IMG/VR virus record: IMGVR_UViG_3300021387_000104
Location: 3,409 to 67,408 of that record
Direction: 5' to 3' (one strand)
Length of the DNA stretch: 64,000 bases
Source: a virus
Lineage: Duplodnaviria; Caudoviricetes
The position numbers and the translations under genes are program-made. Below the pieces are notes generated by a model. The model did not search any database. It saw nothing but the letters and a program-made list of their open reading frames with translations, and had not been told where the DNA came from. The first letter of the stretch is position 1; every line of letters begins with the position of its first letter. Below are positions 6,899 through 48,608 of this stretch, in pieces.

Positions 6899-7255
6899 AT
6901 GTCTGAGCATTACAAGAATCTTGAAAAAGCCATGTGCAAAGAGTTGGAAAAGCTCGATAAAAAGTACACGGCTGATACCGAAATGACCGACGTCGATGCG
7001 GAACGTGCCGACAAACTGTACCATGCGCTGAAATCTGCCGCTACTTATCATGCAATGAAGGACGCGGAAGAGGAAGACGAGGAAGAAGGTTACAGCGGCG
7101 AAGGCCGTTCCTACCGTGGGCGTTCCTATGGCATGGGTCGTTCATATGCCCGCCGGCGTGATGCCATGGGCCGATACAGCCGGATGGGTGAACCGGAGTA
7201 TTCCGGTCGCTATCCGATGGAGTACATTGACCCGTACTGGGATCGTCGGTTCTGA
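6899..7255 (+). CDS. Hypothetical protein with an Arg/Ser/Tyr/Gly-rich tail
   Basis: AAGGAGG RBS; GRSY repeats and RRRDAMGRYSR. Confidence 0.7.
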   Translation: MSEHYKNLEKAMCKELEKLDKKYTADTEMTDVDAERADKLYHALKSAATYHAMKDAEEEDEEEGYSGEGRSYRGRSYGMGRSYARRRDAMGRYSRMGEPEYSGRYPMEYIDPYWDRRF

Positions 7256-7277
7256 TAAGGACATATTTGTCCCTAAC

Positions 7278-7312
7278 AAAAAAGCCCGCCTCAGAAATGG
7301 GGCGGGTTCTTT
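7278..7312. terminator. Bidirectional terminator between convergent genes
   Basis: A6-GCCCGCC...GGCGGGT-TCTTT hairpin between the stops at 7255 (+) and 7318 (-). Confidence 0.75.
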
Positions 7313-7317
7313 ATATG

Positions 7318-8745
7318 TTACCAAGTGTATTCTGAAATGGTCTTTTCAAGCGTTCCTTCACCTTGCTCTGCCAGACGGATGAAATCAAACACCTTTTCAG
7401 ACCATCCTGCTATGATGTTTGTCTTTGGTCCGTGGAACTGCTGTGTACCATAGCCTTGCAGGTCGATAGCGTGTACCCAGATGTCGTTGCCAGACTTCCT
7501 GCGGTATTGGTCTGCAAGCGATTGTACAGGGGAACTCCATCCACAATTGCACTGATTGTCTGAAATAATGATGATTCGGTCAGCATCTACGCGGTCAGCC
7601 AGCATTTTTTCAAACGGAAGACCCATTGCTGTGCCACCACTGGCGCGCGCTTCATGGACGGTCGTGTGCAGTATGCCGTTTCTGGAAGATATTGGTTGCT
7701 TACTGATGCTGTTGTTGAATGTATAGAAAATGCTGTTATCGCACATCTTGTTCGCGATCAGTCCGAGTAACATACCGATTTCACAGCACTGAATATCAGA
7801 TTTGCTGCTTATAAGACCACTCATCGAACCTGATACATCAACGGCGATTACGGTAGTGCCAGACAGACGCGGCATGTTTTCAATAGATGCTTCTACGGCG
7901 CTTTCAAGAGCGTCATACACGCGGCTGCCGGCGGAGGCAGGGAGATTCTTATAAGCGGAGAGAAAGCGGAACGGAAGCTGCTTGGACTTGTGTACGGCAA
8001 CGGGATCTTCAATGCGGTTAAGCACTTTTTCAATGTTGTCTGGCTTTGCTTCAATGATGTTTCTCAGGTTTCTGAGTAGCGCCATATATCCGACCTTGCC
8101 GCTATTGATAAGTCCCTCCCATGTCTTCTTGTTGTTGCCGTTCTTTGAAAGTTCAGTTTCCCATGTCAGCGGGGTTTCAAGCGTTCCTTCAAGACAACGC
8201 TTCCACATTGCTTCCTGTTCTGCGTCCTTCGGCTTCGGCCTGCACAGGCACAGCAAATCGCGCATTTTTACGCCTTTGCCATCACCCTTATACTTGGCAA
8301 GGGTATATTCATCGAACGTCTTAAGCACGTCGCAAATGCCGTTTCTGACAGAGTTGGGAATGGGCTTGCCGAACGTGTTCAAATAAAAAGACATAATTTC
8401 CGTCACGTCATCGCCGCGCAACGATACGCCACGGATGGTCTCACGCGCGTGTGGCTTGCCTTCAGGCTCATGCGCAAGAAAACCGGTCAGCACGTGCGCA
8501 ACAGAACGCATGTTGAACTCCCTGCGGGCGAACACGGCCAACTTGGAAACAAACTGTGGGTCGGTTTTGATAACGCGCTGGATGGTTTCTGTCATTTCCT
8601 TGCTGTTATCACCGTAGAACTTGCTTTCGTTGAAAAAGCTCGTAAGGACTTGCGTAATAAGCTTTTCCTTGTCATTCATACGGTAAGCGACGTGACCTTC
8701 CTTGTTGGTCGTCTTGATAGTAGCGGTGTTGTTGAACTTTGCCAT
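7318..8745 (-). CDS. rsr: Ro60/TROVE RNA-binding protein with C-terminal vWA domain
   Basis: TROVE motifs (SFFNESKFYG, ARREFNMRS, TWETELS, GYMALLRNLRNI, QLPFRFLSAY), vWA MIDAS DVSGSM and IIIISDNQ; AAAAGGAGGT RBS. Confidence 0.93.
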   Translation of the reverse strand: MAKFNNTATIKTTNKEGHVAYRMNDKEKLITQVLTSFFNESKFYGDNSKEMTETIQRVIKTDPQFVSKLAVFARREFNMRSVAHVLTGFLAHEPEGKPHARETIRGVSLRGDDVTEIMSFYLNTFGKPIPNSVRNGICDVLKTFDEYTLAKYKGDGKGVKMRDLLCLCRPKPKDAEQEAMWKRCLEGTLETPLTWETELSKNGNNKKTWEGLINSGKVGYMALLRNLRNIIEAKPDNIEKVLNRIEDPVAVHKSKQLPFRFLSAYKNLPASAGSRVYDALESAVEASIENMPRLSGTTVIAVDVSGSMSGLISSKSDIQCCEIGMLLGLIANKMCDNSIFYTFNNSISKQPISSRNGILHTTVHEARASGGTAMGLPFEKMLADRVDADRIIIISDNQCNCGWSSPVQSLADQYRRKSGNDIWVHAIDLQGYGTQQFHGPKTNIIAGWSEKVFDFIRLAEQGEGTLEKTISEYTW

Positions 8746-8780
8746 GCAGTACCTCCTTTTACGGTGGACAAAATAAAAAA

Positions 8781-8860
8781 CAAACGCGATAAATCCGCAA
8801 CCGGGTAAGCCAGTGTCGAATTACAAGTTCGATGCATCCGATTACTGCAATGCGCGTTTG
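8781..8860 (-). ncRNA. Array unit E: short stem-closed RNA with the shared CAUUGC/UUUAU motif, no T arm
   Basis: Minus strand: CAAACGCG-CATTGC-A...TTTAT-CGCGTTTG; internal hairpin TCGAA-CTTGTAA-TTCGA. Confidence 0.6.
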
Positions 8861-8870
8861 TCTTTGGTGT

Positions 8871-9018
8871 GAAGCGGATAAAAACGGAAACGGTACGTTT
8901 AGCGCTCTGCCGATTGAGCTACTACGATTACTCATAAAGAGCCACACTCGTAGACGGGGCTCGAACCCGCAACCTCTCGCTTAACAGGCGAAGTAACCTT
9001 TTCCTACAATGCCGCTTC
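8871..9018 (-). ncRNA. Array unit A: circularly permuted tRNA-Asn(GTT)-like RNA (Y RNA/YrlA-like candidate)
   Basis: Minus strand: GAAGCGG-CATTGT...GGTTAC-TTCGC CTGTTAA GCGAG-AGGTT-GCGGG TTCGAGC CCCGT-CTACGA-linker-TCGTAG-TA-GCTC AATCGGCA GAGC...TTTAT-CCGCTTC. Confidence 0.8.
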
Positions 9019-9026
9019 AGTGGCGT

Positions 9027-9163
9027 GATGCTGATAAATTCGATAACAGTACATTTACGGTGTGCTACCATTACACCATCCCACACATATGGGCGTGGGA
9101 GCAGGAATCGAACCTACACTACCGGCACCATAGCGAAGTAACTGTCATCTGCAATGCAGCATC
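9027..9163 (-). ncRNA. Array unit B: circularly permuted tRNA-like RNA
   Basis: Minus strand: GATGCTG-CATTGC...GTTACTTCG...GTAGG TTCGATT CCTGC-TCCCAC-loop-GTGGGA-TG-GTGT AATGGTA GCAC...TTTAT-CAGCATC. Confidence 0.8.
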
Positions 9164-9170
9164 ATTGGCA

Positions 9171-9281
9171 CGGTGCGGATAAAACTTGATTCTGTAAATG
9201 CCAACCATGGCTAAAGACGGAATCGAACCGGCAGTTCGTAAATATGCACACGAAGTAACAGAATCATGCAATGCCACACCG
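9171..9281 (-). ncRNA. Array unit C: reduced unit with T arm only
   Basis: Minus strand: CGGTGTGG-CATTGC-A-TGATTCTG-TTACTTCG...CCGG TTCGATT CCG...CAGAATCA...TTTAT-CCGCACCG. Confidence 0.72.
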
Positions 9282-9283
9282 AA

Positions 9284-9330
9284 CTCTCCCGACAGGGTTT
9301 GAACCTGTGACATTCTGCTTAACAGTCAGG
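9284..9330 (-). pseudogene. 3' half of tRNA-Asn(GTT); left inversion junction
   Basis: Minus strand: CCTGA CTGTTAA GCAGA ATGTC ACAGG TTCAAAC CCTGT CGGGAGA G; no D arm upstream in this orientation. Confidence 0.8.
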
Positions 9331-9470
9331 TGAAAAACCTGAATTTTACAGCGTTTTCAAGCACTATGTTATAAACATGTTATAAACCGGAATACAGTTT
9401 TATCAACACAAATAGTCTTATTACACTGGCTTTGATGACATATTATTGACACAATTGATATATGAACGGG

Positions 9471-9499
9471 TTGCAAAACAAACAAAAGCAGTGTATTAT
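9471..9499 (+). promoter_or_regulatory. Sigma-A promoter inside the putative invertible segment
   Basis: TTGCAA-17 nt-TATTAT with TG before the -10; followed by hairpin CGTGTTCA-CT-TGAACACG. Confidence 0.7.
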
Positions 9500-9521
9500 A
9501 TATGCGTGTTCACTTGAACAC

Positions 9522-9657
9522 GAACGGCATTGCAGGTAACGGTTACTTCAAGCCAGATTTGTGTCAATGGTTCGATTCCATTCCCAGTCCTACGGGCTGG
9601 CGTAGCTCAGATGGTAGAGCAAAATCACGAAAACACCGTTGCCAAATTTATCCGTTT
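9522..9657 (+). ncRNA. Array unit D: circularly permuted tRNA-like RNA (plus strand in this orientation)
   Basis: GAACGG-CATTGC-A-GGTAACGGT-TACTTC...AATGG TTCGATT CCATT-CCCAGTCC TACG GGCTGG-CG-TA-GCTC AGATGGTA GAGC...ACCGTTGCC-AAATTTAT-CCGTTT. Confidence 0.8.
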
Positions 9658-9663
9658 GTCTTA

Positions 9664-9754
9664 TGCGTGGGTTCATGACACGGCCCGTCTGATCAACGGA
9701 GCACGCCATGACAATGAGGCTAACATTGTGAAGGGTAGCCACCTTCCCCACGCA
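9664..9754 (+). ncRNA. Four-way-junction RNA candidate with complementary loops
   Basis: Closing stem TGCGTGGG/CCCACGCA and three internal arms; loop segments GGCTA (9718-9722) and TAGCC (9736-9740) are complementary. Confidence 0.55.
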
Positions 9755-9760
9755 GGTTAT

Positions 9761-9836
9761 TCTCCTGTAGCTCAGTCGGTAGAGCGTCTGCCTGTTAATC
9801 AGGGTGTCCCGGGTTCGAGTCCCTGATGGCGCACCA
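9761..9836 (+). pseudogene. Chimeric 76-nt tRNA: Asn(GTT) 5' half joined to an unrelated 3' half; right inversion junction and att core
   Basis: Canonical D arm, T loop and CCA, but the acceptor TCTCCTG/ATGGCGC pairs at only 3 of 7 positions and the anticodon stem TCTGC/TCAGG is imperfect. Confidence 0.8.
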
Positions 9837-9840
9837 CATG

Positions 9841-9884
9841 AAAGCCCCGAAAGTTTCGAGAGATTCAGAACTTTCGGGGTTTTT
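9841..9884. terminator. Hairpin terminator downstream of the att core and integrase
   Basis: AAA-GCCCCGAAAGTT...AACTTTCGGGGT-TTTT. Confidence 0.75.
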
Positions 9885-9996
9885 CCTGTTATAAACGGGT
9901 TCTTCAATAATTCTCTGAAATTCCCTCTGGTTTATAACACGGTTTATAACATTAGATTACGGGTTTTTTGGCGAAATCTACGACACTATTCTGACA

Positions 9997-11061
9997 CTAT
10001 TTGATCTGGTCGGTAATCGCCTTTAGGTCGGATAAGGTAGAAGACTGATAGTGCTTCTTGGTGGTCTCGTAACTGGCGTGGCCCATCAGTTCGGCCTTGT
10101 CTTTGTCCGCCCCGACGAGTTTTTTAATTTTATTGGAATAGGTGTGTCTGGTGGCATATGGTACTTTGCCAACGATGCCGAGCTTGTCCATCATGGGATG
10201 CCAGATGAATTTGTTAAAGTACCTGGTAGGCATGACGGAATAAGTGCCGGTGGGTTTGCCTTTCCGGTCAAGGTCGATGCGCGGGAAAAGCAAATCCGTA
10301 CCATCAATCGCAAGGCAACGCTCGATAATCGGCTGCACACTGGATGGAATGGGAACTATACGGGTTTTTCCGGCCTCGGTCTTGATGCCGCCAGCAATGT
10401 AGTGTACGCTGTTTTCGGTATAGTAGTCAGACTTTTTGAAATTGAAAAACTCAGTTGGGCGATGACCAAGGTAGCATAAGGCGACTACATAATCAGCATA
10501 AGGAAGTCCTGATTCGGAGATACGTTTCAGTTCTTCCTCGCTTAGTGGTTCGTAATGTGTGGTCTCCTCATCGCCGGTGTAGAGGTTCGCGGCATTGTTC
10601 TTATAGATTTGGTCATCGTCGATGGCGTATTTGAAAACCAGTCCGGCAGTGACCTTCATCAAATCTTTTGTGCGTCTTCCTTTAGAGCAATTATCTATAC
10701 AGTTTTGCAAGTCAACCGCGCTGATCATGTCGATCTTCGTATAATGCAGTGGTTTGAAATGAATATTAAACACAGATGCATAGCCTTCCATGGTCTTTGC
10801 AGACACACGGTCAGCATATGACGCAGACCAACTTTTGAAGTTGTCAAGGAACGTCTTTGGTGGATGTTTGACGCGCTTTTTTTCAATGAGATCAGATAGA
10901 TAGTTCATCGCGTCTTTTTTCTTTTCAAAGCCGCCCTTGGTCTTCCAAACCGGCTTCAAACCAGCTTTGTTATCGGCAGGCTCATAGTGATCCACAACGC
11001 GTGCCGTCCAGGTGTTTCCGCGTTTATAGACGTTCCCTGTGCCGTTGGGGCGTTTGGACAT
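9997..11061 (-). CDS. int: Tyrosine integrase
   Basis: N-terminal arm-binding-like KRPNGTGNVYKR; catalytic GHRPTE (R), KTEAG (K), YATRHTY, LMGH and HY; AAGGAG RBS. Confidence 0.93.
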   Translation of the reverse strand: MSKRPNGTGNVYKRGNTWTARVVDHYEPADNKAGLKPVWKTKGGFEKKKDAMNYLSDLIEKKRVKHPPKTFLDNFKSWSASYADRVSAKTMEGYASVFNIHFKPLHYTKIDMISAVDLQNCIDNCSKGRRTKDLMKVTAGLVFKYAIDDDQIYKNNAANLYTGDEETTHYEPLSEEELKRISESGLPYADYVVALCYLGHRPTEFFNFKKSDYYTENSVHYIAGGIKTEAGKTRIVPIPSSVQPIIERCLAIDGTDLLFPRIDLDRKGKPTGTYSVMPTRYFNKFIWHPMMDKLGIVGKVPYATRHTYSNKIKKLVGADKDKAELMGHASYETTKKHYQSSTLSDLKAITDQIK

Positions 11062-11066
11062 ATCAT

Positions 11067-11711
11067 TCACTCCTTAAACATTCGCGTGAAGCCGACCGGC
11101 TTGCCTAAGATGCGAACGATGTTGTACTCGTCGAATGGCATAAACATAGGCTGATATGATGGATTGTCACTAACCAGCAACAGACCGTTATTCTGGCGAT
11201 AGACGTGTTTGAGCGTCGCGCTGTCGTCGAGCAATACGACAAGCACTTGTCCGTCATAGTCGATGGTATCTTGTGCGCGGATGAATACCACATCGCCGTC
11301 AAGAAAGTTGGGGCTCATGCTGTCACCGCTGATGCGGAGGGCGTAGTCTGCTTTGCACGGGCAGTCGATATAAGCATCATAACTCTCCTCGGCCAGGATC
11401 GGAGTGCCGGCGGCGACGGAGCCGATAAGGGGAACTTTGCTGAATGAGTCGGGGTTGATTTCCTTTAAACCGTTTGGCAAGCTGGTTTTATTCCATCCCA
11501 AGACAGCGGGAACATCAAGCGACAGCACTTTACATATTTTGACGATACTATCGAGAGAGAATTTTTGAGTTTTCCCTGTGACCCATCGATTAATAGACGA
11601 CTTGGCAACGCCTGTCTTTTCGCCAAGTTGCTCATAAGTAATTCCTTCAGAGGTCATGGCTTCAAGTATCCGTTGCCTTATGACCGGGGCTAATACTTCA
11701 TAATTATCCAT
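11067..11711 (-). CDS. cI: CI-like repressor (HTH plus S24 autoproteolytic domain)
   Basis: XRE HTH; VPLIGSVAAG cleavage region; GDSM (Ser) and TLKH (Lys). Confidence 0.92.
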   Translation of the reverse strand: MDNYEVLAPVIRQRILEAMTSEGITYEQLGEKTGVAKSSINRWVTGKTQKFSLDSIVKICKVLSLDVPAVLGWNKTSLPNGLKEINPDSFSKVPLIGSVAAGTPILAEESYDAYIDCPCKADYALRISGDSMSPNFLDGDVVFIRAQDTIDYDGQVLVVLLDDSATLKHVYRQNNGLLLVSDNPSYQPMFMPFDEYNIVRILGKPVGFTRMFKE

Positions 11712-11736
11712 AGAAACGACCTCCTTTTCAAAAAAT

Positions 11737-11852
11737 ATTATAATGTAGGAATCCCAATAATGCAATACTAAATCAAAAATTTTTGAAATTTTATCCCAAA
11801 AAGGGGTTGACAAGTTATTTCGCTTGTGTTAAGATTATCCCAGTTCCGGGAC
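11737..11852. promoter_or_regulatory. Divergent cI/cro promoters with three operator-like palindromes
   Basis: Rightward TTGACA(11807)-17-TAAGAT; leftward TTGCAT-17-TATAAT (11765 to 11737). ATCCCA-N4-TGGGAT variants at 11751, 11793 and 11837; a perfect copy at 12081. Confidence 0.8.
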
Positions 11853-12292: not shown

Positions 12293-12991
12293 ATGGCTAA
12301 GAAGACTGAAGAAAAGGCTGTCATCAAGATCAACCCCATCAAGCTGCAGAAGGCGCGCATCACTATCGTGGGCGACACGCCGCTGATCGTGCATTCCTGG
12401 TCGGAAAAGGCGAAAAAAGAGATGCTGGCGGTTCAGCAGAAAGTTGCAAAAGCCAAGAAGGCCAAGGACATTCGCGATCCGTTTGCTGAGTTCATGGATG
12501 CTGCTTACTGGATTACCCCTGAACCGGAAGAGAAGACCCCAGAAGCGTTTGAAAAAGCCGTGGCAGACGGTGCGAAGTTCGGCTTCAAGGTCATTCCGTT
12601 TAAGCTTGCGGCTATCAGCGCCTGCTACCGTGCCGGCATCACCAAGAACAAAGTGGATCTGATGTGCTCATTCTTTGTGAACGCTGTGGACGGTGTGTGT
12701 CACGCGACCGGTGAAGAACTGGCAGTCATCCGCTCCGACAGGCCTCCCATTCTGCGCGAGGACATGGTGAGGATCGGCGGCATCAGCAAGACTGCCGACC
12801 TGCGTTATCGTCCTTCCTTCGTCAACTGGAAGACTGACCTTGAGGTTACCCTGATCGACACCGGTGTGTTCGATATGCGCAGCATCATCGAGGCGATCAA
12901 CTTGGGCGGCTTCATGAACGGTGTCGGCGAGTGGCGAATGGAAAAGTGCGGTGATTTCGGGCGATTCCATGTGGAACTTGCGGAGGAGTAA
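12293..12991 (+). CDS. RAMP/Cas7-like RRM-fold protein (candidate guide-RNA-binding effector, Vipr-like)
   Basis: N-terminal strand ITIVGDTPLIVH and C-terminal glycine-rich loop GGFMNGVGEWRMEKCGDFGRFHV; lies upstream of the pentamer array. Motif-level recognition only. Confidence 0.7.
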   Translation: MAKKTEEKAVIKINPIKLQKARITIVGDTPLIVHSWSEKAKKEMLAVQQKVAKAKKAKDIRDPFAEFMDAAYWITPEPEEKTPEAFEKAVADGAKFGFKVIPFKLAAISACYRAGITKNKVDLMCSFFVNAVDGVCHATGEELAVIRSDRPPILREDMVRIGGISKTADLRYRPSFVNWKTDLEVTLIDTGVFDMRSIIEAINLGGFMNGVGEWRMEKCGDFGRFHVELAEE

Positions 12992-12992
12992 G

Positions 12993-13460
12993 ATGGCGGC
13001 TTTCAGTTACGCATACCATGTCCCTGGCTTGCAGAAGAACCCGGTCGAGGTTGTCGGCAAGGTACTGAACGAGTTGGCTAACAGCAACGGCGGACTAACC
13101 CCAAAGACGCTGCTGGATGCCAGCCGCGACGTGAATGCACCGCTCCACAACGAATTTGAATGGAATGACGGCATCGCCGCTGAGAAGTACCGAGAGTACC
13201 AAGCAAGGCAGATCATCCTGAATGTGTACGTCAAGTACTCTACCGACGAGCAGGAACGCGAACAGCAGGAACGGGCGTATGTCCCTGTTCCTGGCGGTAA
13301 AAGCGCCTATGTATCGCTGAAAGCCGCCCTGACCAATGATGAGTGGAAAGCCCATCTGATGGAAGAGGCCAAGCGCGACATGAAAGCCTTTGCCGCGAAG
13401 TACCGCAGACTGATTGAACTGCAAGACCTGATCCATGAAATGGAAGCGTTGTTCACATGA
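12993..13460 (+). CDS. Conserved partner protein of the RAMP-like gene
   Basis: GGAGGAG RBS; LTPKTLLDASRD...PLHNEFEWND..AAEKYR..QARQII motif; sits between the RAMP-like gene and the array. Confidence 0.75.
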   Translation: MAAFSYAYHVPGLQKNPVEVVGKVLNELANSNGGLTPKTLLDASRDVNAPLHNEFEWNDGIAAEKYREYQARQIILNVYVKYSTDEQEREQQERAYVPVPGGKSAYVSLKAALTNDEWKAHLMEEAKRDMKAFAAKYRRLIELQDLIHEMEALFT

Positions 13461-13575
13461 GAGCAACGGAAATGAAGGTGCCTGAACCGTACCAGAGAGG
13501 ACGGCACCGAAGTAGCACGGACGAAAAGCCTGTGTGAGGTAGCCTGAGATGGTGAGACATGGTACGACAAGATTA

Positions 13576-14370
13576 GGCAGTATTGGCAAGTTTAGACCTG
13601 TCGCGTTAAGGCAAGGCGCGGAATGGCAGTATCGGAAAGGCAGGTCGTGGTGAGGCGAGGCAATGCACGGATTGGCAGTCTAGGAGAGGCTTGGTGTGTC
13701 AGGGCGCGGATAGGCGTGTTCAGGCTTGGCAGTCAAGGTTCGTCACGGTCGTGTTGGGTTCGTAATGGCATGGAACGGAACGGCAGTTAAGGCAAGGAGC
13801 GGTTAGTTCAGGCGAGCCACGGCATGTAAAGGTCAGTTTAGGCAGTCCTGGATAGGCGAGCCGAGGCGTGGCCCGGAGAGGTACGGCCTGGGATGGCAGT
13901 CAGGGCTTGTTGTGGACGGGCACGTATCGGCCTGGCTTGGAGCGGCAGTCGCGGATAGGCAGTGTTCGGTTAGTCGCGGTTGGGACTGGCAGTATCGGAA
14001 TGTCAGGTAATGGCTTGTTCAGGCAGATTTTGGTTTGGCTATGTCTGGTATGGACAGGCAGTCAGGGCAAGGCCGGTTTAGGCGTCGATGGGATCGCATC
14101 GGACGGGCAGTCAAGGTAAGGCGAGTCGCGGAATGGCTTGCACAGGCTCGGAAGGGCAGTCTTGGAGAGGATGGGCTAGGCTCGGACCTGTTCGTCAAGG
14201 CATGGCAGTCATGGATGGGTTTGGCAAGGCTCGTACAGGCGCGGAATGGCAGTCATGGATGGGCCCGGAAGCGTTCGTTTGGTTGCGGCAGGGGGTGGCA
14301 AGCTCTGGCATGGCAGTCATGGAGAGGCGTGTCAAGCTGAGACGTGGACTGGCTGTGCGCGCAACGGCAG
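13576..14370 (+). repeat. Array of 15 units: GGCAG-TNNN head plus 7-12 GGN-NN pentamers (candidate guide-RNA array)
   Basis: GGCAGT heads at 13576, 13625, 13674, 13728, 13782, 13841, 13895, 13944, 13988, 14057, 14106, 14155, 14204, 14248 and 14312; closing GGCAG at 14366. All spacings (44-69 nt) equal 5n+4. Confidence 0.92.
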
Positions 14371-48514: not shown

Positions 48515-48608
48515 AACAACTTTGGCGGATAGATCGACGGGTCGAAAAGTGGAGTGCCTTGCCACCTGCCGCCAATTAAAAAAGGCAAACCTATTAGGAG
48601 GCAATAGG

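What the first reader, a model, noticed from the sequence alone, without database searches (positions are those of the whole stretch)
7318..9760. Phage-encoded Ro60 with its own polycistronic array of tRNA-mimic RNAs
Seen: an intact TROVE+vWA gene runs against the surrounding late genes, has its own terminator, and is preceded by four co-oriented stem-closed RNAs, plus a fifth in the invertible segment. No RtcB, PNPase or nuclease gene is nearby. Established: bacterial Ro60 (Rsr) binds Y RNAs such as YrlA, which mimic tRNA, are encoded beside rsr and tether it to effectors; rsr loci are linked to RNA-damage responses. Inference: this is a phage RNP module with several different RNA partners, possibly decoys or repair adaptors against tRNA-cleaving defences. 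Three GTT anticodon loops (8981-8987, 9319-9325, 9792-9798) point to Asn-tRNA as the relevant substrate.
Basis: partly seen in the sequence, partly recalled or inferred. Interest (0 to 1): 0.85.

Follow-up and report, generated by a model that had tools for sequence, protein, structure and literature searches.

The report
Phage Ro60 gene with Y-RNA array
A temperate phage of rumen Clostridia carries a Ro60 RNA-binding protein gene preceded by five small structured RNAs of the bacterial Y-RNA type. This kind of module is already known from other phages, but here it is unusually multi-copy, it includes a complete rearranged copy of a tRNA, and a DNA inversion at the phage integration site has split it.

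Summary
Window 7318-8745(-) encodes an intact Ro60 (TROVE+vWA). Five stem-closed RNAs lie beside it: U1-U4 on the same strand, U5 on the opposite strand. They belong to a family with strong covariation support (150 units; 94.9% paired against about 42% in slid controls). This family sits directly upstream of homologous rsr genes in most of 48 loci from rumen/gut Clostridia and their phages, in arrays of up to seven, often interleaved with real tRNAs. Distant chromosomal relatives have Y units-rsr-rtcB, the canonical RNA-repair operon.

Phage Ro60 with adjacent YrlA-like RNAs is published (Chen 2014; Thermus phage phiLo 2025). This is therefore a divergent variant of a known kind: Rfam YrlA scores 28-34 bits against a threshold of 69.

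The "three GTT loops point to Asn" argument fails in part. Two of the loops are the junctions of a 466-bp inversion between the attP core (a host tRNA-Lys(CUU) 3' part) and the phage's own tRNA-Asn gene. Re-inverting in silico restores a perfect tRNA-Asn, a canonical attP and one colinear array.

The third loop lies in U3, whose head is a complete circularly permuted tRNA-Asn mimic. Related units carry many other anticodons.

The decoy or anti-defence role is untested. The scan's other notes on this DNA list the same inversion.

The parts
7278..7318 (.). Bidirectional intrinsic terminator ending the Ro60 gene (- strand) and the upstream + strand genes
   Evidence: GC-rich hairpin with T runs on both strands
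7318..8745 (-). Ro60/Rsr gene, 475 aa, TROVE + vWA (MIDAS DxSxS at 303-307)
   Evidence: Pfam, PHROG 850, PDB 9L5Y E 2.4e-34, alignment A1
8781..8860 (-). U4: short Y-like unit. It has the closing module plus an anticodon-like hairpin (UCGAA-CUUGUAA-UUCGA). Its outer stem followed by a U run looks like a terminator/attenuator just before the Ro60 RBS.
   Evidence: R1 36.4 bits, E 8e-9, and not in the model's seed; fold; terminator-like site
8870..9019 (-). U3: Y-like unit whose head is a complete circularly permuted tRNA-Asn(GUU) mimic. The order is anticodon arm, T arm, closed acceptor hairpin, D arm.
   Evidence: R1 122.6 bits; Rfam YrlA 28.4 bits; the head un-permuted in silico is called tRNA-Asn in 16/16 constructs
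9026..9164 (-). U2: Y-like unit with T arm, acceptor-like hairpin and D-like arm
   Evidence: R1 106.5 bits; fold z -3.6
9171..9281 (-). U1: Y-like unit with a T-loop hairpin only
   Evidence: R1 56.8 bits, E 7e-15, and not in the seed; fold z -4.5
9283..9325 (-). 3' half of a split tRNA-Asn(GUU) gene (3' strand of the anticodon stem, T arm, acceptor 3' strand) plus the junction loop CTGTTAA (9319-9325)
   Evidence: Re-inversion gives an ARAGORN tRNA-Asn; repeats D4/I2
9326..9791 (.). The 466-bp inverted segment, bounded by the two CTGTTAA loops
   Evidence: In-silico re-inversion restores the tRNA-Asn and a canonical attP; comparison with the attP of L066
9367..9387 (+). Pair of TGTTATAAAC repeats, read as the integrase arm-type sites (P arm), now displaced about 400 bp from the core by the inversion
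   Evidence: The exact 10-mer occurs 5 times, all between 9367 and 9951, and nowhere else in 64 kb. The same pairs flank the core in L066, L069, L075 and L065.
9471..9499 (+). Sigma-70-like promoter (TTGCAA-17-TATTAT) upstream of U5. After re-inversion it would head the whole array.
   Evidence: Promoter scan; this is a consensus match only
9520..9659 (+). U5: Y-like unit with T arm, acceptor-like hairpin and D arm
   Evidence: R1 109.7 bits; Rfam YrlA 33.7 bits
9664..9754 (+). Cloverleaf-shaped spacer RNA candidate (8-bp closing stem, three hairpins with 7-nt loops) without tRNA consensus
   Evidence: Fold -36 kcal/mol, z -1.95, which is weak
9760..9798 (+). 5' half of the split tRNA-Asn(GUU) gene (acceptor 5' strand, D arm, 5' strand of the anticodon stem) plus the junction loop CTGTTAA (9792-9798)
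9795..9836 (+). attP identity block: 42 nt, 100% identical to the 3' part of host tRNA-Lys(CUU) genes, from the anticodon loop to CCA
   Evidence: Alignment with MAG G001 tRNA-Lys(CTT)
9841..9883 (.). Terminator after the tRNA 3' part
   Evidence: Inverted repeat I13 followed by a T run
9887..9951 (.). P' arm: one TGTTATAAAC (9887-9896, +) and a pair in the opposite orientation (9930-9951)
   Evidence: same distance from the CCA end as in L066
9997..11070 (-). Tyrosine integrase
   Evidence: Pfam Phage_integrase and N-terminal SAM-like/arm-binding domains, all near threshold; 68% identical to the Int of L066
11067..11813 (-). cI-like repressor (HTH + Peptidase_S24)
   Evidence: Pfam

Best explanation
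This is a phage-borne Ro60-Y RNA ribonucleoprotein module. It is a derivative of the bacterial Y RNA-rsr(-rtcB) operon, and it sits at the attP end of a temperate phage of rumen Clostridia.

Shown:
- The Ro60 gene is intact.
- There are five RNAs of one covarying family. Each is closed by an outer stem, a helix with a bulged pyrimidine, an asymmetric internal loop and an inner stem. Each carries a different head.
- The heads differ: a permuted whole tRNA-Asn mimic in U3, T+D-arm tRNA elbows in U2 and U5, a T-loop only in U1, and an anticodon-like hairpin only in U4.
- Such arrays are the rule next to homologous rsr genes.

Inferred:
- The array is made as one precursor: promoter-U5-spacer-tRNA-Asn-U1-U2-U3-U4, with gaps of 1-9 nt. 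It is cut into single RNAs, possibly by tRNA-processing enzymes.
- Each closing module binds the Ro60 ring.
- The different heads tether Ro60 to different host tRNA-binding or RNA-degrading proteins. PNPase is the precedent, in RYPER and in phiLo. The phage encodes no RtcB, PNPase core or RNA ligase itself.

In the sequenced copy, the phage integrase (or an equivalent site-specific event) has recombined the attP core with the anticodon loop of the phage's own tRNA-Asn gene. This inverted 466 bp. It split the tRNA and attP, and it put U5 and its promoter on the opposite strand.
For: - Ro60 identity.
- RNA family: RNAalifold on 13 units gives 28 pairs, 22 of them with compensatory changes. On 150 units, 94.9% of cells are paired against 41-50% when partners are slid, with 984 double-sided changes and 0/500 shuffles as good.
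- Bulged helix: position 4 of the 5' loop pairs with position 7 of the 3' loop in 134/134 units (U-A 94, G-C 34, C-G 6).
- Specificity: only these five hits occur in the phage genome. In five host MAGs (about 14 Mb) all strong full-length hits are at Ro60 loci.
- Recurrence: 38 of 48 loci have at least 2 co-oriented upstream units, 19 have at least 4, and the maximum is 7. tRNAs are interleaved.
- Ancestry: L048, L050 and L053 have Y units-rsr-RtcB.
- Weak but directional Rfam YrlA matches.
- Inversion: re-inversion gives an ARAGORN tRNA-Asn (0 tRNAs before, 1 after). It also gives an attP with the same layout as L066, whose Int is 68% identical, and an identity of 51/52 to host tRNA-Lys(CUU).
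- Precedents: PMC4201824, PMC12135203.
Against: - No expression, processing or binding data.
- Rfam YrlA scores are far below the gathering threshold (33.7 and 28.4 against 69).
- The window's units lack the strict GNCGAAN0-1G motif proposed for Rsr recognition.
- Promoter and terminator calls are consensus matches at about chance density.
- In L007 and L018 Ro60 follows 11-13 tRNAs with no Y unit, so Ro60 may not need these RNAs.
- The un-inverted state was not found in any database record.
Confidence: 0.78

Rival explanations
1. Anti-defence reading. The RNAs are decoys or Ro60-tethered repair or sensing adaptors directed at tRNA-cleaving host defences. Their anticodon-like loops mimic the targeted tRNAs.
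For: - About 30 of 150 units carry a canonical 7-nt anticodon-like loop with U33 and a purine at 37 on a conserved UUCGN/N'CGAG stem. GUU is the commonest.
- U3 is a whole permuted tRNA-Asn.
- The tRNAs interleaved in relatives include Lys(UUU), Leu(UAA), Glu(UUC), Asn and Thr. Some of these types, tRNA-Lys for one, are linked in the literature to anticodon nucleases and to phage tRNA counter-defence (abstracts of PMC10264068, PMC11555353 and PMC1484252, seen).
- The chromosomal ancestors are linked to RtcB RNA repair.
Against: - Most units have no anticodon-like loop, and the loops that exist are heterogeneous (17 different triplets).
- There is no ligase, kinase or nuclease in the phage.
- Two of the three GTT loops cited are recombination junctions.
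- The anticodon hairpins could be vestiges of descent from tRNA genes.
- There are no functional data.
Confidence: 0.15
2. tRNA-array quality control. Ro60 serves mainly the phage tRNA cluster, binding misfolded or unprocessed tRNA precursors. The Y-like units are regulators (gates) of that activity rather than tethers to effectors.
For: - Ro60 lies immediately downstream of tRNA arrays in L007 and L018 (11-13 tRNAs, no Y unit) and of mixed tRNA/Y arrays elsewhere.
- The restored window array contains a tRNA-Asn 1 nt from U1.
- Y RNA gating of Ro60 is established in D. radiodurans (cited in PMC4201824).
Against: - Many loci have Y units and no tRNA.
- The window phage has only one tRNA gene, and it is split.
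- This reading is not exclusive of the best explanation.
Confidence: 0.2
3. The 466-bp inversion is a programmed, reversible switch. One state gives an intact attP, an intact tRNA-Asn and a promoter aimed at the whole Y-RNA/Ro60 operon. The other state uncouples them.
For: - The exchange is exactly within the 7-nt loop, flanked by stem-symmetric sequences and arm sites, next to a tyrosine integrase.
- The inversion moves the best promoter match.
Against: - Only one orientation is seen.
- The relative L066 has a plain attP with direct arm pairs and no second site.
- Recombination of attP with a nearby pseudo-attB is an expected accident, and its reversal would need excisive conditions.
- Reads could not be examined.
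Confidence: 0.3
4. The units are decaying relics of tRNA gene duplications with no function and no link to Ro60.
For: The heads are tRNA-derived, and ARAGORN miscalls some of them as tRNAs.
Against: - The non-tRNA closing module is conserved and covaries across Ro60 proteins of 49-96% identity.
- The units are found only beside rsr.
Confidence: 0.03

Closest known systems
YrlA/YrlB Y RNAs with Rsr (Salmonella rsr-yrlBA-rtcBA; M. smegmatis; 22 phages) - Chen et al. 2014, PMC4201824; Rfam RF02553
   Same: - Encoded directly upstream of Ro60 and co-oriented with it.
- Closed by a long stem formed from the 5' and 3' ends.
- The head has a T arm, an acceptor-like hairpin and a D arm in permuted order.
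- More than one RNA per locus, made from one precursor.
- A short second RNA type.
- RtcB linkage in distant chromosomal relatives.
   Different: - Rfam scores of 28-34 bits against a gathering score of 69.
- The 5' motif is GGCAUUGYA rather than GNCGAAN0-1G.
- Arrays of up to seven units, interleaved with true tRNAs.
- Some heads keep a full anticodon arm in addition to the Ro-binding stem. In published YrlA the stem-loop between the T and D arms stands for the acceptor stem and no anticodon arm is described (PMC4201824).
- No RtcB in the phage.
Thermus phage phiLo Ro60 with Yrl1/Yrl2 (PMC12135203; PDB 9KOP, 9L5Y)
   Same: - The protein is the closest solved relative (E 2.4e-34).
- Y-like RNAs lie upstream of the gene.
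- There is no phage PNPase; host PNPase is recruited in vitro.
   Different: - phiLo has two RNAs; this phage has five.
- phiLo's RNAs are described with a CGAA bulge motif and no tRNA-like head is reported.
- No integration site is described next to the phiLo locus in the passages read, whereas here the module abuts attP.
Deinococcus radiodurans Rsr-Yrn1-PNPase (RYPER)
   Same: The working model is the same: a Y RNA tethers the Ro60 ring to an exoribonuclease. Yrn1 has a potential anticodon-like arm (PMC4201824).
   Different: The protein is only distantly similar (2NVO, E 1e-8, partial). The RNA family is different.
tRNA-gene attP sites of tyrosine integrases with crossover in the anticodon loop (the class described by Williams 2002, from my own knowledge); nearest example here is IMGVR_UViG_3300031760_000304 (L066)
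   Same: - Int is 68% identical.
- The arm repeats are identical (GTTTATAACA pairs).
- The core is a tRNA-Lys(CUU) 3' part starting at the anticodon loop, followed by a terminator.
   Different: - In the window the core has recombined with an internal tRNA-Asn gene, so the P arm and the P' arm now sit on separate hybrid sites 466 bp apart in inverted orientation.
- L066 has no Ro60 module in the held stretch.

Membership tests
Ro60/Rsr protein (TROVE family) | TROVE (HEAT-repeat ring) domain | tested here: met
   PF05731, 4.5e-32, 112 bits against a cutoff of 23
Ro60/Rsr protein (TROVE family) | C-terminal vWA domain with MIDAS DxSxS | tested here: met
   PF25045, 1.1e-10; D303, S305 and S307 are invariant in A1
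Ro60/Rsr protein (TROVE family) | Full-length similarity to a solved Ro60 ring | tested here: met
   9L5Y/9KOP, E 2.4e-34, over residues 12-466
Ro60/Rsr protein (TROVE family) | Binds Y RNA or misfolded RNA | not testable with these tools
   Needs RIP-seq or gel-shift assays
YrlA-type bacterial Y RNA (RF02553) | Reaches the Rfam gathering score | tested here: not met
   Best scores are 33.7 bits (U5) and 28.4 bits (U3) against 69. Relatives reach at most 41.8 bits.
YrlA-type bacterial Y RNA (RF02553) | Encoded within a few kb of rsr, on the same strand | tested here: met
   U1-U4 are 36-536 nt upstream on the same strand. U5 is on the opposite strand now and on the same strand after re-inversion. 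The same holds in most of 48 loci.
YrlA-type bacterial Y RNA (RF02553) | Long stem formed by the 5' and 3' ends, with a bulged helix or internal loop (the Ro60 site) | tested here: met
   The outer and inner stems covary. The bulged-pyrimidine helix is Watson-Crick in 134/134 units.
YrlA-type bacterial Y RNA (RF02553) | GNCGAAN0-1G motif near the 5' end | tested here: not met
   The window's units read G(G/U/C)CAUUG(C/U)A. Only 6/150 family members have a CGAA/GAAC-type loop.
YrlA-type bacterial Y RNA (RF02553) | tRNA-like head (T arm, acceptor-like stem, D arm) | tested here: met
   Present in U2, U3 and U5. About two thirds of 150 units have the T arm. U1 has a partial head and U4 has none.
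YrlA-type bacterial Y RNA (RF02553) | Bound and stabilised by Rsr in vivo | not testable with these tools
Phage attP in a tRNA gene (tyrosine integrase) | Adjacent tyrosine integrase | tested here: met
   9997-11070(-); Pfam match near threshold; 68% identical to the L066 Int, which lies beside an attP of the same layout
Phage attP in a tRNA gene (tyrosine integrase) | Block identical to the 3' part of a host tRNA gene | tested here: met
   42/42 nt now and 51/52 after re-inversion, against tRNA-Lys(CUU) of MAG G001
Phage attP in a tRNA gene (tyrosine integrase) | Clustered arm-type repeats on both sides of the core | tested here: met
   Five exact TGTTATAAAC copies, all between 9367 and 9951; the same pairs flank the core in relatives
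Phage attP in a tRNA gene (tyrosine integrase) | Observed attL/attR junctions in a lysogen | tested here: inconclusive
Programmed invertible DNA switch | Both orientations coexist in a population | not testable with these tools
Database scans found no un-inverted copy.
Programmed invertible DNA switch | Inverted recombination sites flanking the segment, plus a recombinase | tested here: met
   CTGTTAA cores in inverted orientation, within 29-nt arms 79% complementary (I2); the integrase is adjacent

The most novel reading that the evidence does not exclude
The heads of these arrayed Y RNAs are a modular set of isoacceptor-specific tRNA mimics (Asn, Thr, Lys, Ser, Gly, Ile and others). Some of them are whole permuted tRNAs. 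Mounted on Ro60, they would intercept or sense enzymes that read anticodon loops, such as anticodon nucleases and modification enzymes. This would give temperate Clostridia phages a programmable RNA-based counter-defence or tRNA-surveillance device. In this phage its expression would be toggled by an integrase-driven inversion that also switches integration competence.
Probability: 0.12. Interest if true: 0.85.

Novelty: new variant of a known kind. Interest (0 to 1): 0.5.

Why it matters
- It extends the Ro60/Y-RNA system to a large group of rumen and gut Clostridia and their phages that Rfam's YrlA threshold misses.
- One Ro60 can be served by up to seven RNAs with one shared handle and different heads. 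That is a natural test bed for the idea that Y RNA heads are interchangeable adaptors.
- Units that keep a whole permuted tRNA, anticodon arm included, and arrays interleaved with real tRNAs tie Ro60 more closely to tRNA biology than the published examples do.
- The inversion is a clear case of a phage's own tRNA gene acting as a secondary attachment site for its integrase. It costs the phage both the tRNA and attP.
- None of this changes the class of the system. The functional claims remain to be tested.

Tried and rejected
1. Megablast of 7000-10100 against phage GenBank records and E. coli genomes found no match.
2. ARAGORN finds no tRNA in the window as sequenced. The Rfam tRNA hit at 9761-9833 (34.3 bits) has an acceptor stem that does not pair. 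I first read it as a plain attP copy of a tRNA-Asn. Host comparison showed a Lys(CUU) 3' part joined to an Asn 5' part.
3. I first took the TGTTATAAAC repeats as the ends of the invertible segment. I rejected this: they are arm-type sites, and the exchange point is the anticodon loop.
4. The idea that each unit ends in a tRNA-like NCCA tail was rejected. CCA lies within 7 nt of the 3' end in only 9/149 units, fewer than in the 5' control.
5. Brute-force un-permutation of all units for ARAGORN was noisy, with many inconsistent calls. Only the hand-defined U3 test is used.
6. Scans of viral and metagenome contigs for either junction state found only unrelated tRNA-Asn genes.
7. The genome search 'relatives' and 'order' are not available for a virus record.
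8. The 96%-identical Ro60 contig (P0001) and any reads could therefore not be examined.
9. The reviews PMC10870794 and PMC6047535 are not held. The supplements of Chen 2014 are not held.


Full report
WHAT THE WINDOW IS. The window is bases 3409-67408 of a 67,408-bp IMG/VR virus record with direct terminal repeats, rated 100% complete. It is a temperate phage. An endolysin (990-1895) and a holin (2470-2904) lie on the + strand, followed by genes of unknown function. Then, on the - strand, come a Ro60 gene (7318-8745), a 1.25-kb non-coding stretch, a tyrosine integrase (9997-11070) and a cI-like HTH+S24 repressor (11067-11813). Ro60 homologues of 63-76% identity come from rumen and gut Clostridia MAGs (Ruminococcus, Acutalibacteraceae, Oscillospiraceae) and from viral contigs. 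The host is therefore most likely a rumen member of the Clostridia.

THE PROTEIN. The 475-aa product has the TROVE and Ro60-vWA domains and an invariant DxSxS motif. It matches PHROG 850. Its closest solved relative is the Ro60 of Thermus phage phiLo (9L5Y/9KOP, E 2.4e-34); D. radiodurans Rsr is much more distant. The gene has a strong RBS and a bidirectional terminator. The phage genome has no RtcB, RNase PH/PNPase-core or RNA-ligase domain.

THE RNAs. Repeat analysis showed a shared 5' motif (GCAUUGCA-N7-GUUACUUCG) and a shared 3' motif (UUUAUC + stem) four times on the - strand and once on the + strand. The units are:
- U1 9281->9171
- U2 9164->9026
- U3 9019->8870
- U4 8860->8781
- U5 9520-9659(+)

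Single-sequence folds give the same frame for all five: an 8-bp outer stem, an asymmetric internal loop, a 7-9-bp inner stem, then a variable head. Rfam's YrlA model hits U5 (33.7 bits) and U3 (28.4 bits), well below its gathering score of 69.

THE FAMILY. Thirteen units from seven loci gave an RNAalifold structure of 28 pairs, 22 of them with compensatory changes. The covariance model built from it (R1) has these properties:
- It finds all five window units, including U1 and U4, which were not in the seed. It finds nothing else in the phage.
- Across 47 sources it finds 158 units at E<=1e-6. Almost all are on the Ro60 strand and directly upstream of the gene.
- On 150 aligned units, 94.9% of cells form standard pairs, against 41-50% when partners are slid. 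There are 984 double-sided changes, and 0 of 500 shuffles do as well. That alignment is fitted to the model, which favours the structure, but the margin is very large and the seed result is independent.
- Inside the 'internal loop' one cross-loop pair covaries perfectly (U-A 94, G-C 34, C-G 6 of 134) next to a conserved A-U. The helix therefore continues past a single bulged pyrimidine. This recalls the bulged helix that Ro60 recognises in animal Y RNAs (PMC12135203 introduction; PMC4201824).
- In five host MAGs (about 14 Mb) every strong full-length hit lies at a Ro60 locus. The partial hits are tandem tRNAs, the false-positive class that Chen et al. describe (PMC4201824).

ARRAYS ARE THE RULE. 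Of 48 Ro60 loci, 38 have at least two co-oriented upstream units, 19 have at least four, and the maximum is seven. True tRNAs are interleaved in a number of loci (Lys-UUU most often, also Leu-UAA and Glu-UUC), although ARAGORN also miscalls some Y units as tRNAs. Two loci (L007, L018) have 11-13 tRNAs and no unit. In more distant chromosomal relatives (L048, L050, L053; Ro60 about 50% identical) the order is Y units-rsr-RtcB. That is the canonical RNA-repair operon known from Salmonella (PMC4201824, PMC7790460).

THE HEADS.
- U2, U3 and U5 have a T arm (GGUUCGAnnCC), a closed acceptor-like hairpin and a D arm.
- U1 has a T-loop hairpin only.
- U4 has no tRNA elbow. It carries a 5-bp hairpin with loop CUUGUAA, and it ends in a stem plus U run just before the Ro60 RBS.
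- U3 also has an anticodon arm (UUCGC-CUGUUAA-GCGAG) before the T arm. When its parts are re-ordered in silico, ARAGORN calls a tRNA-Asn(GUU) in 16 of 16 junction variants. Its head is therefore a complete circularly permuted tRNA, opened between the D and anticodon arms where the Ro-binding stem is attached.

About 30 of 150 family members have such an anticodon-like hairpin with U33 and a purine at 37. The triplets are GUU (6), UUU, GCU (3 each), UCC, UCA, UGU, GAU (2 each) and ten more. In published YrlA the stem-loop between the T and D arms stands for the acceptor stem and no anticodon arm is described (PMC4201824), so this is a variant feature.

THE OTHER TWO GTT LOOPS AND THE 'INVERTIBLE SEGMENT'. 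The Rfam tRNA hit at 9761-9833(+) has an acceptor stem that cannot pair.
- From 9795 to the CCA end at 9836 it is 42/42 identical to tRNA-Lys(CUU) genes of MAG G001. Upstream of that it diverges from tRNA-Lys and resembles a tRNA-Asn.
- On the - strand, 9318->9283 is an orphan tRNA 3' half.
- The two pieces are complementary partners. Inverting 9326-9791 in silico joins them into a tRNA-Asn(GUU) with a perfect 7-bp acceptor, a 5-bp anticodon stem and a 5-bp T stem. ARAGORN finds it (0 tRNAs before, 1 after).
- The same operation creates a textbook attP. Its layout is: a GTTTATAACA pair, 37 nt, then CACCTGA-CTGTTAA-TCAGGG...CCA (51/52 identical to host tRNA-Lys(CUU)), a terminator, one TGTTATAAAC, a GTTTATAACA pair, and int.
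- That is the layout of the attP of L066, whose Int is 68% identical and whose core reads CTCTTAA.
- The exact 10-mer occurs five times in the window, all between 9367 and 9951.
- The exchange lies exactly within the 7-nt loop, between stem-symmetric flanks. This points to site-specific recombination by the integrase between attP and the phage's own tRNA-Asn acting as a pseudo-attB. The shared identity (2+4 nt) is too short for homologous recombination (inference).

In the restored order everything is colinear on the - strand: promoter (TTGCAA-17-TATTAT), U5, a cloverleaf-shaped spacer, tRNA-Asn, U1, U2, U3, U4, Ro60. The gaps are 1-9 nt between the RNA elements and about 20 nt from the promoter to U5. 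This matches the mixed arrays of relatives.

I could not decide whether the inversion is a reversible switch or a one-off accident. It is unexplained why both junction loops now carry G at the wobble position when host and L066 have C.

MECHANISM. Shown: the gene, the RNA family, its structure, its exclusive linkage to rsr, its ancestry in rsr-rtcB operons, and the inversion logic. Inferred: a single precursor cut into unit RNAs; Ro60 binding at the bulged helix; heads acting as tethers to host proteins (PNPase being the precedent in D. radiodurans, Salmonella and phiLo). The position at the attP end, with its own promoter and terminator, is where temperate phages often carry accessory cargo genes (my own knowledge). 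A role in the lysogen is therefore as plausible as one in lytic growth. The decoy or anti-nuclease idea is not excluded, but it rests only on the anticodon-like loops and the company of tRNAs.

COMPARISON AND NOVELTY. Phage Ro60 with neighbouring YrlA-like RNAs was reported for 22 phages in 2014 (PMC4201824). It was studied biochemically and structurally in phiLo in 2025 (PMC12135203). Jumbo-phage surveys also list TROVE proteins with a tRNA-like partner (PMC7824862). The class is known. What is new here:
- a divergent subfamily below Rfam's threshold, with a variant 5' motif
- array sizes up to seven
- interleaving with tRNAs
- heads that are whole permuted tRNAs
- the attP/tRNA-Asn inversion

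Other notes of this scan on the same DNA list the inversion, the tRNA-Lys attB, the permuted tRNA and the cloverleaf. I reached the inversion and attB readings before seeing them, and they agree.

VERDICT. This is a new variant of a known kind, of moderate interest.

Noticed in passing
window 9326-9791 (junction loops 9319-9325 and 9792-9798): There is a 466-bp inversion between the attP core and the phage's own tRNA-Asn gene. Re-inversion restores a perfect tRNA-Asn(GUU) and a canonical attP. Both junction loops read CTGTTAA, although the host tRNA-Lys and the related attP of L066 read CTCTTAA. This is unexplained.
   Followed up: yes
window 9664-9754 (+): Cloverleaf-shaped element (8-bp closing stem, three hairpins with 7-nt loops) between U5 and the tRNA-Asn 5' half. 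It has no tRNA consensus and its fold z-score is only -1.95.
   Followed up: partly
window 48522-48586 (+): Rfam int-alpA RNA motif above its gathering score (46.3 bits against 35.8), far from the integrase studied here.
   Followed up: no
window 12293-14370: Earlier notes of this scan describe a phage VIPR-type guide-array system here, just beyond the repressor gene. I saw only that ORF 12293-12991 matches PHROG 4652 (unknown function).
   Followed up: no
L007 1-3000 and L018 2000-4000: In these two relatives Ro60 (70-73% identical) follows 11-13 genuine tRNA genes and no Y-like unit. Ro60 can therefore be linked to tRNA arrays without this RNA family.
   Followed up: partly
L048, L050, L053 (5434-6688): Chromosomal Clostridiaceae/Oceanirhabdus relatives have Y-like units-rsr-RtcB. 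This shows that the same RNA family serves canonical RNA-repair operons.
   Followed up: partly
L002 214-283; L003 3755-3822; L020: ARAGORN calls tRNAs (Thr-UGU, Asn-GUU, Ile-UAU) inside Y-like units that carry an anticodon-like arm. Such units may be mis-annotated as tRNA genes in public records.
   Followed up: partly
L003 3193-3253 and 3678-3746: Short tRNA-like elements lie between Y units. One has an acceptor stem with an encoded CCA but no clear anticodon arm (Rfam tRNA 42 bits). The other has a two-base 'anticodon' by ARAGORN.
   Followed up: no
L057 (G005:C84) 66-253: In one candidate host MAG, tRNA-Asn(GUU) and tRNA-Lys(CUU) are adjacent genes with nearly identical anticodon stem-loops. 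This may explain why an integrase that targets one can also act on the other.
   Followed up: no
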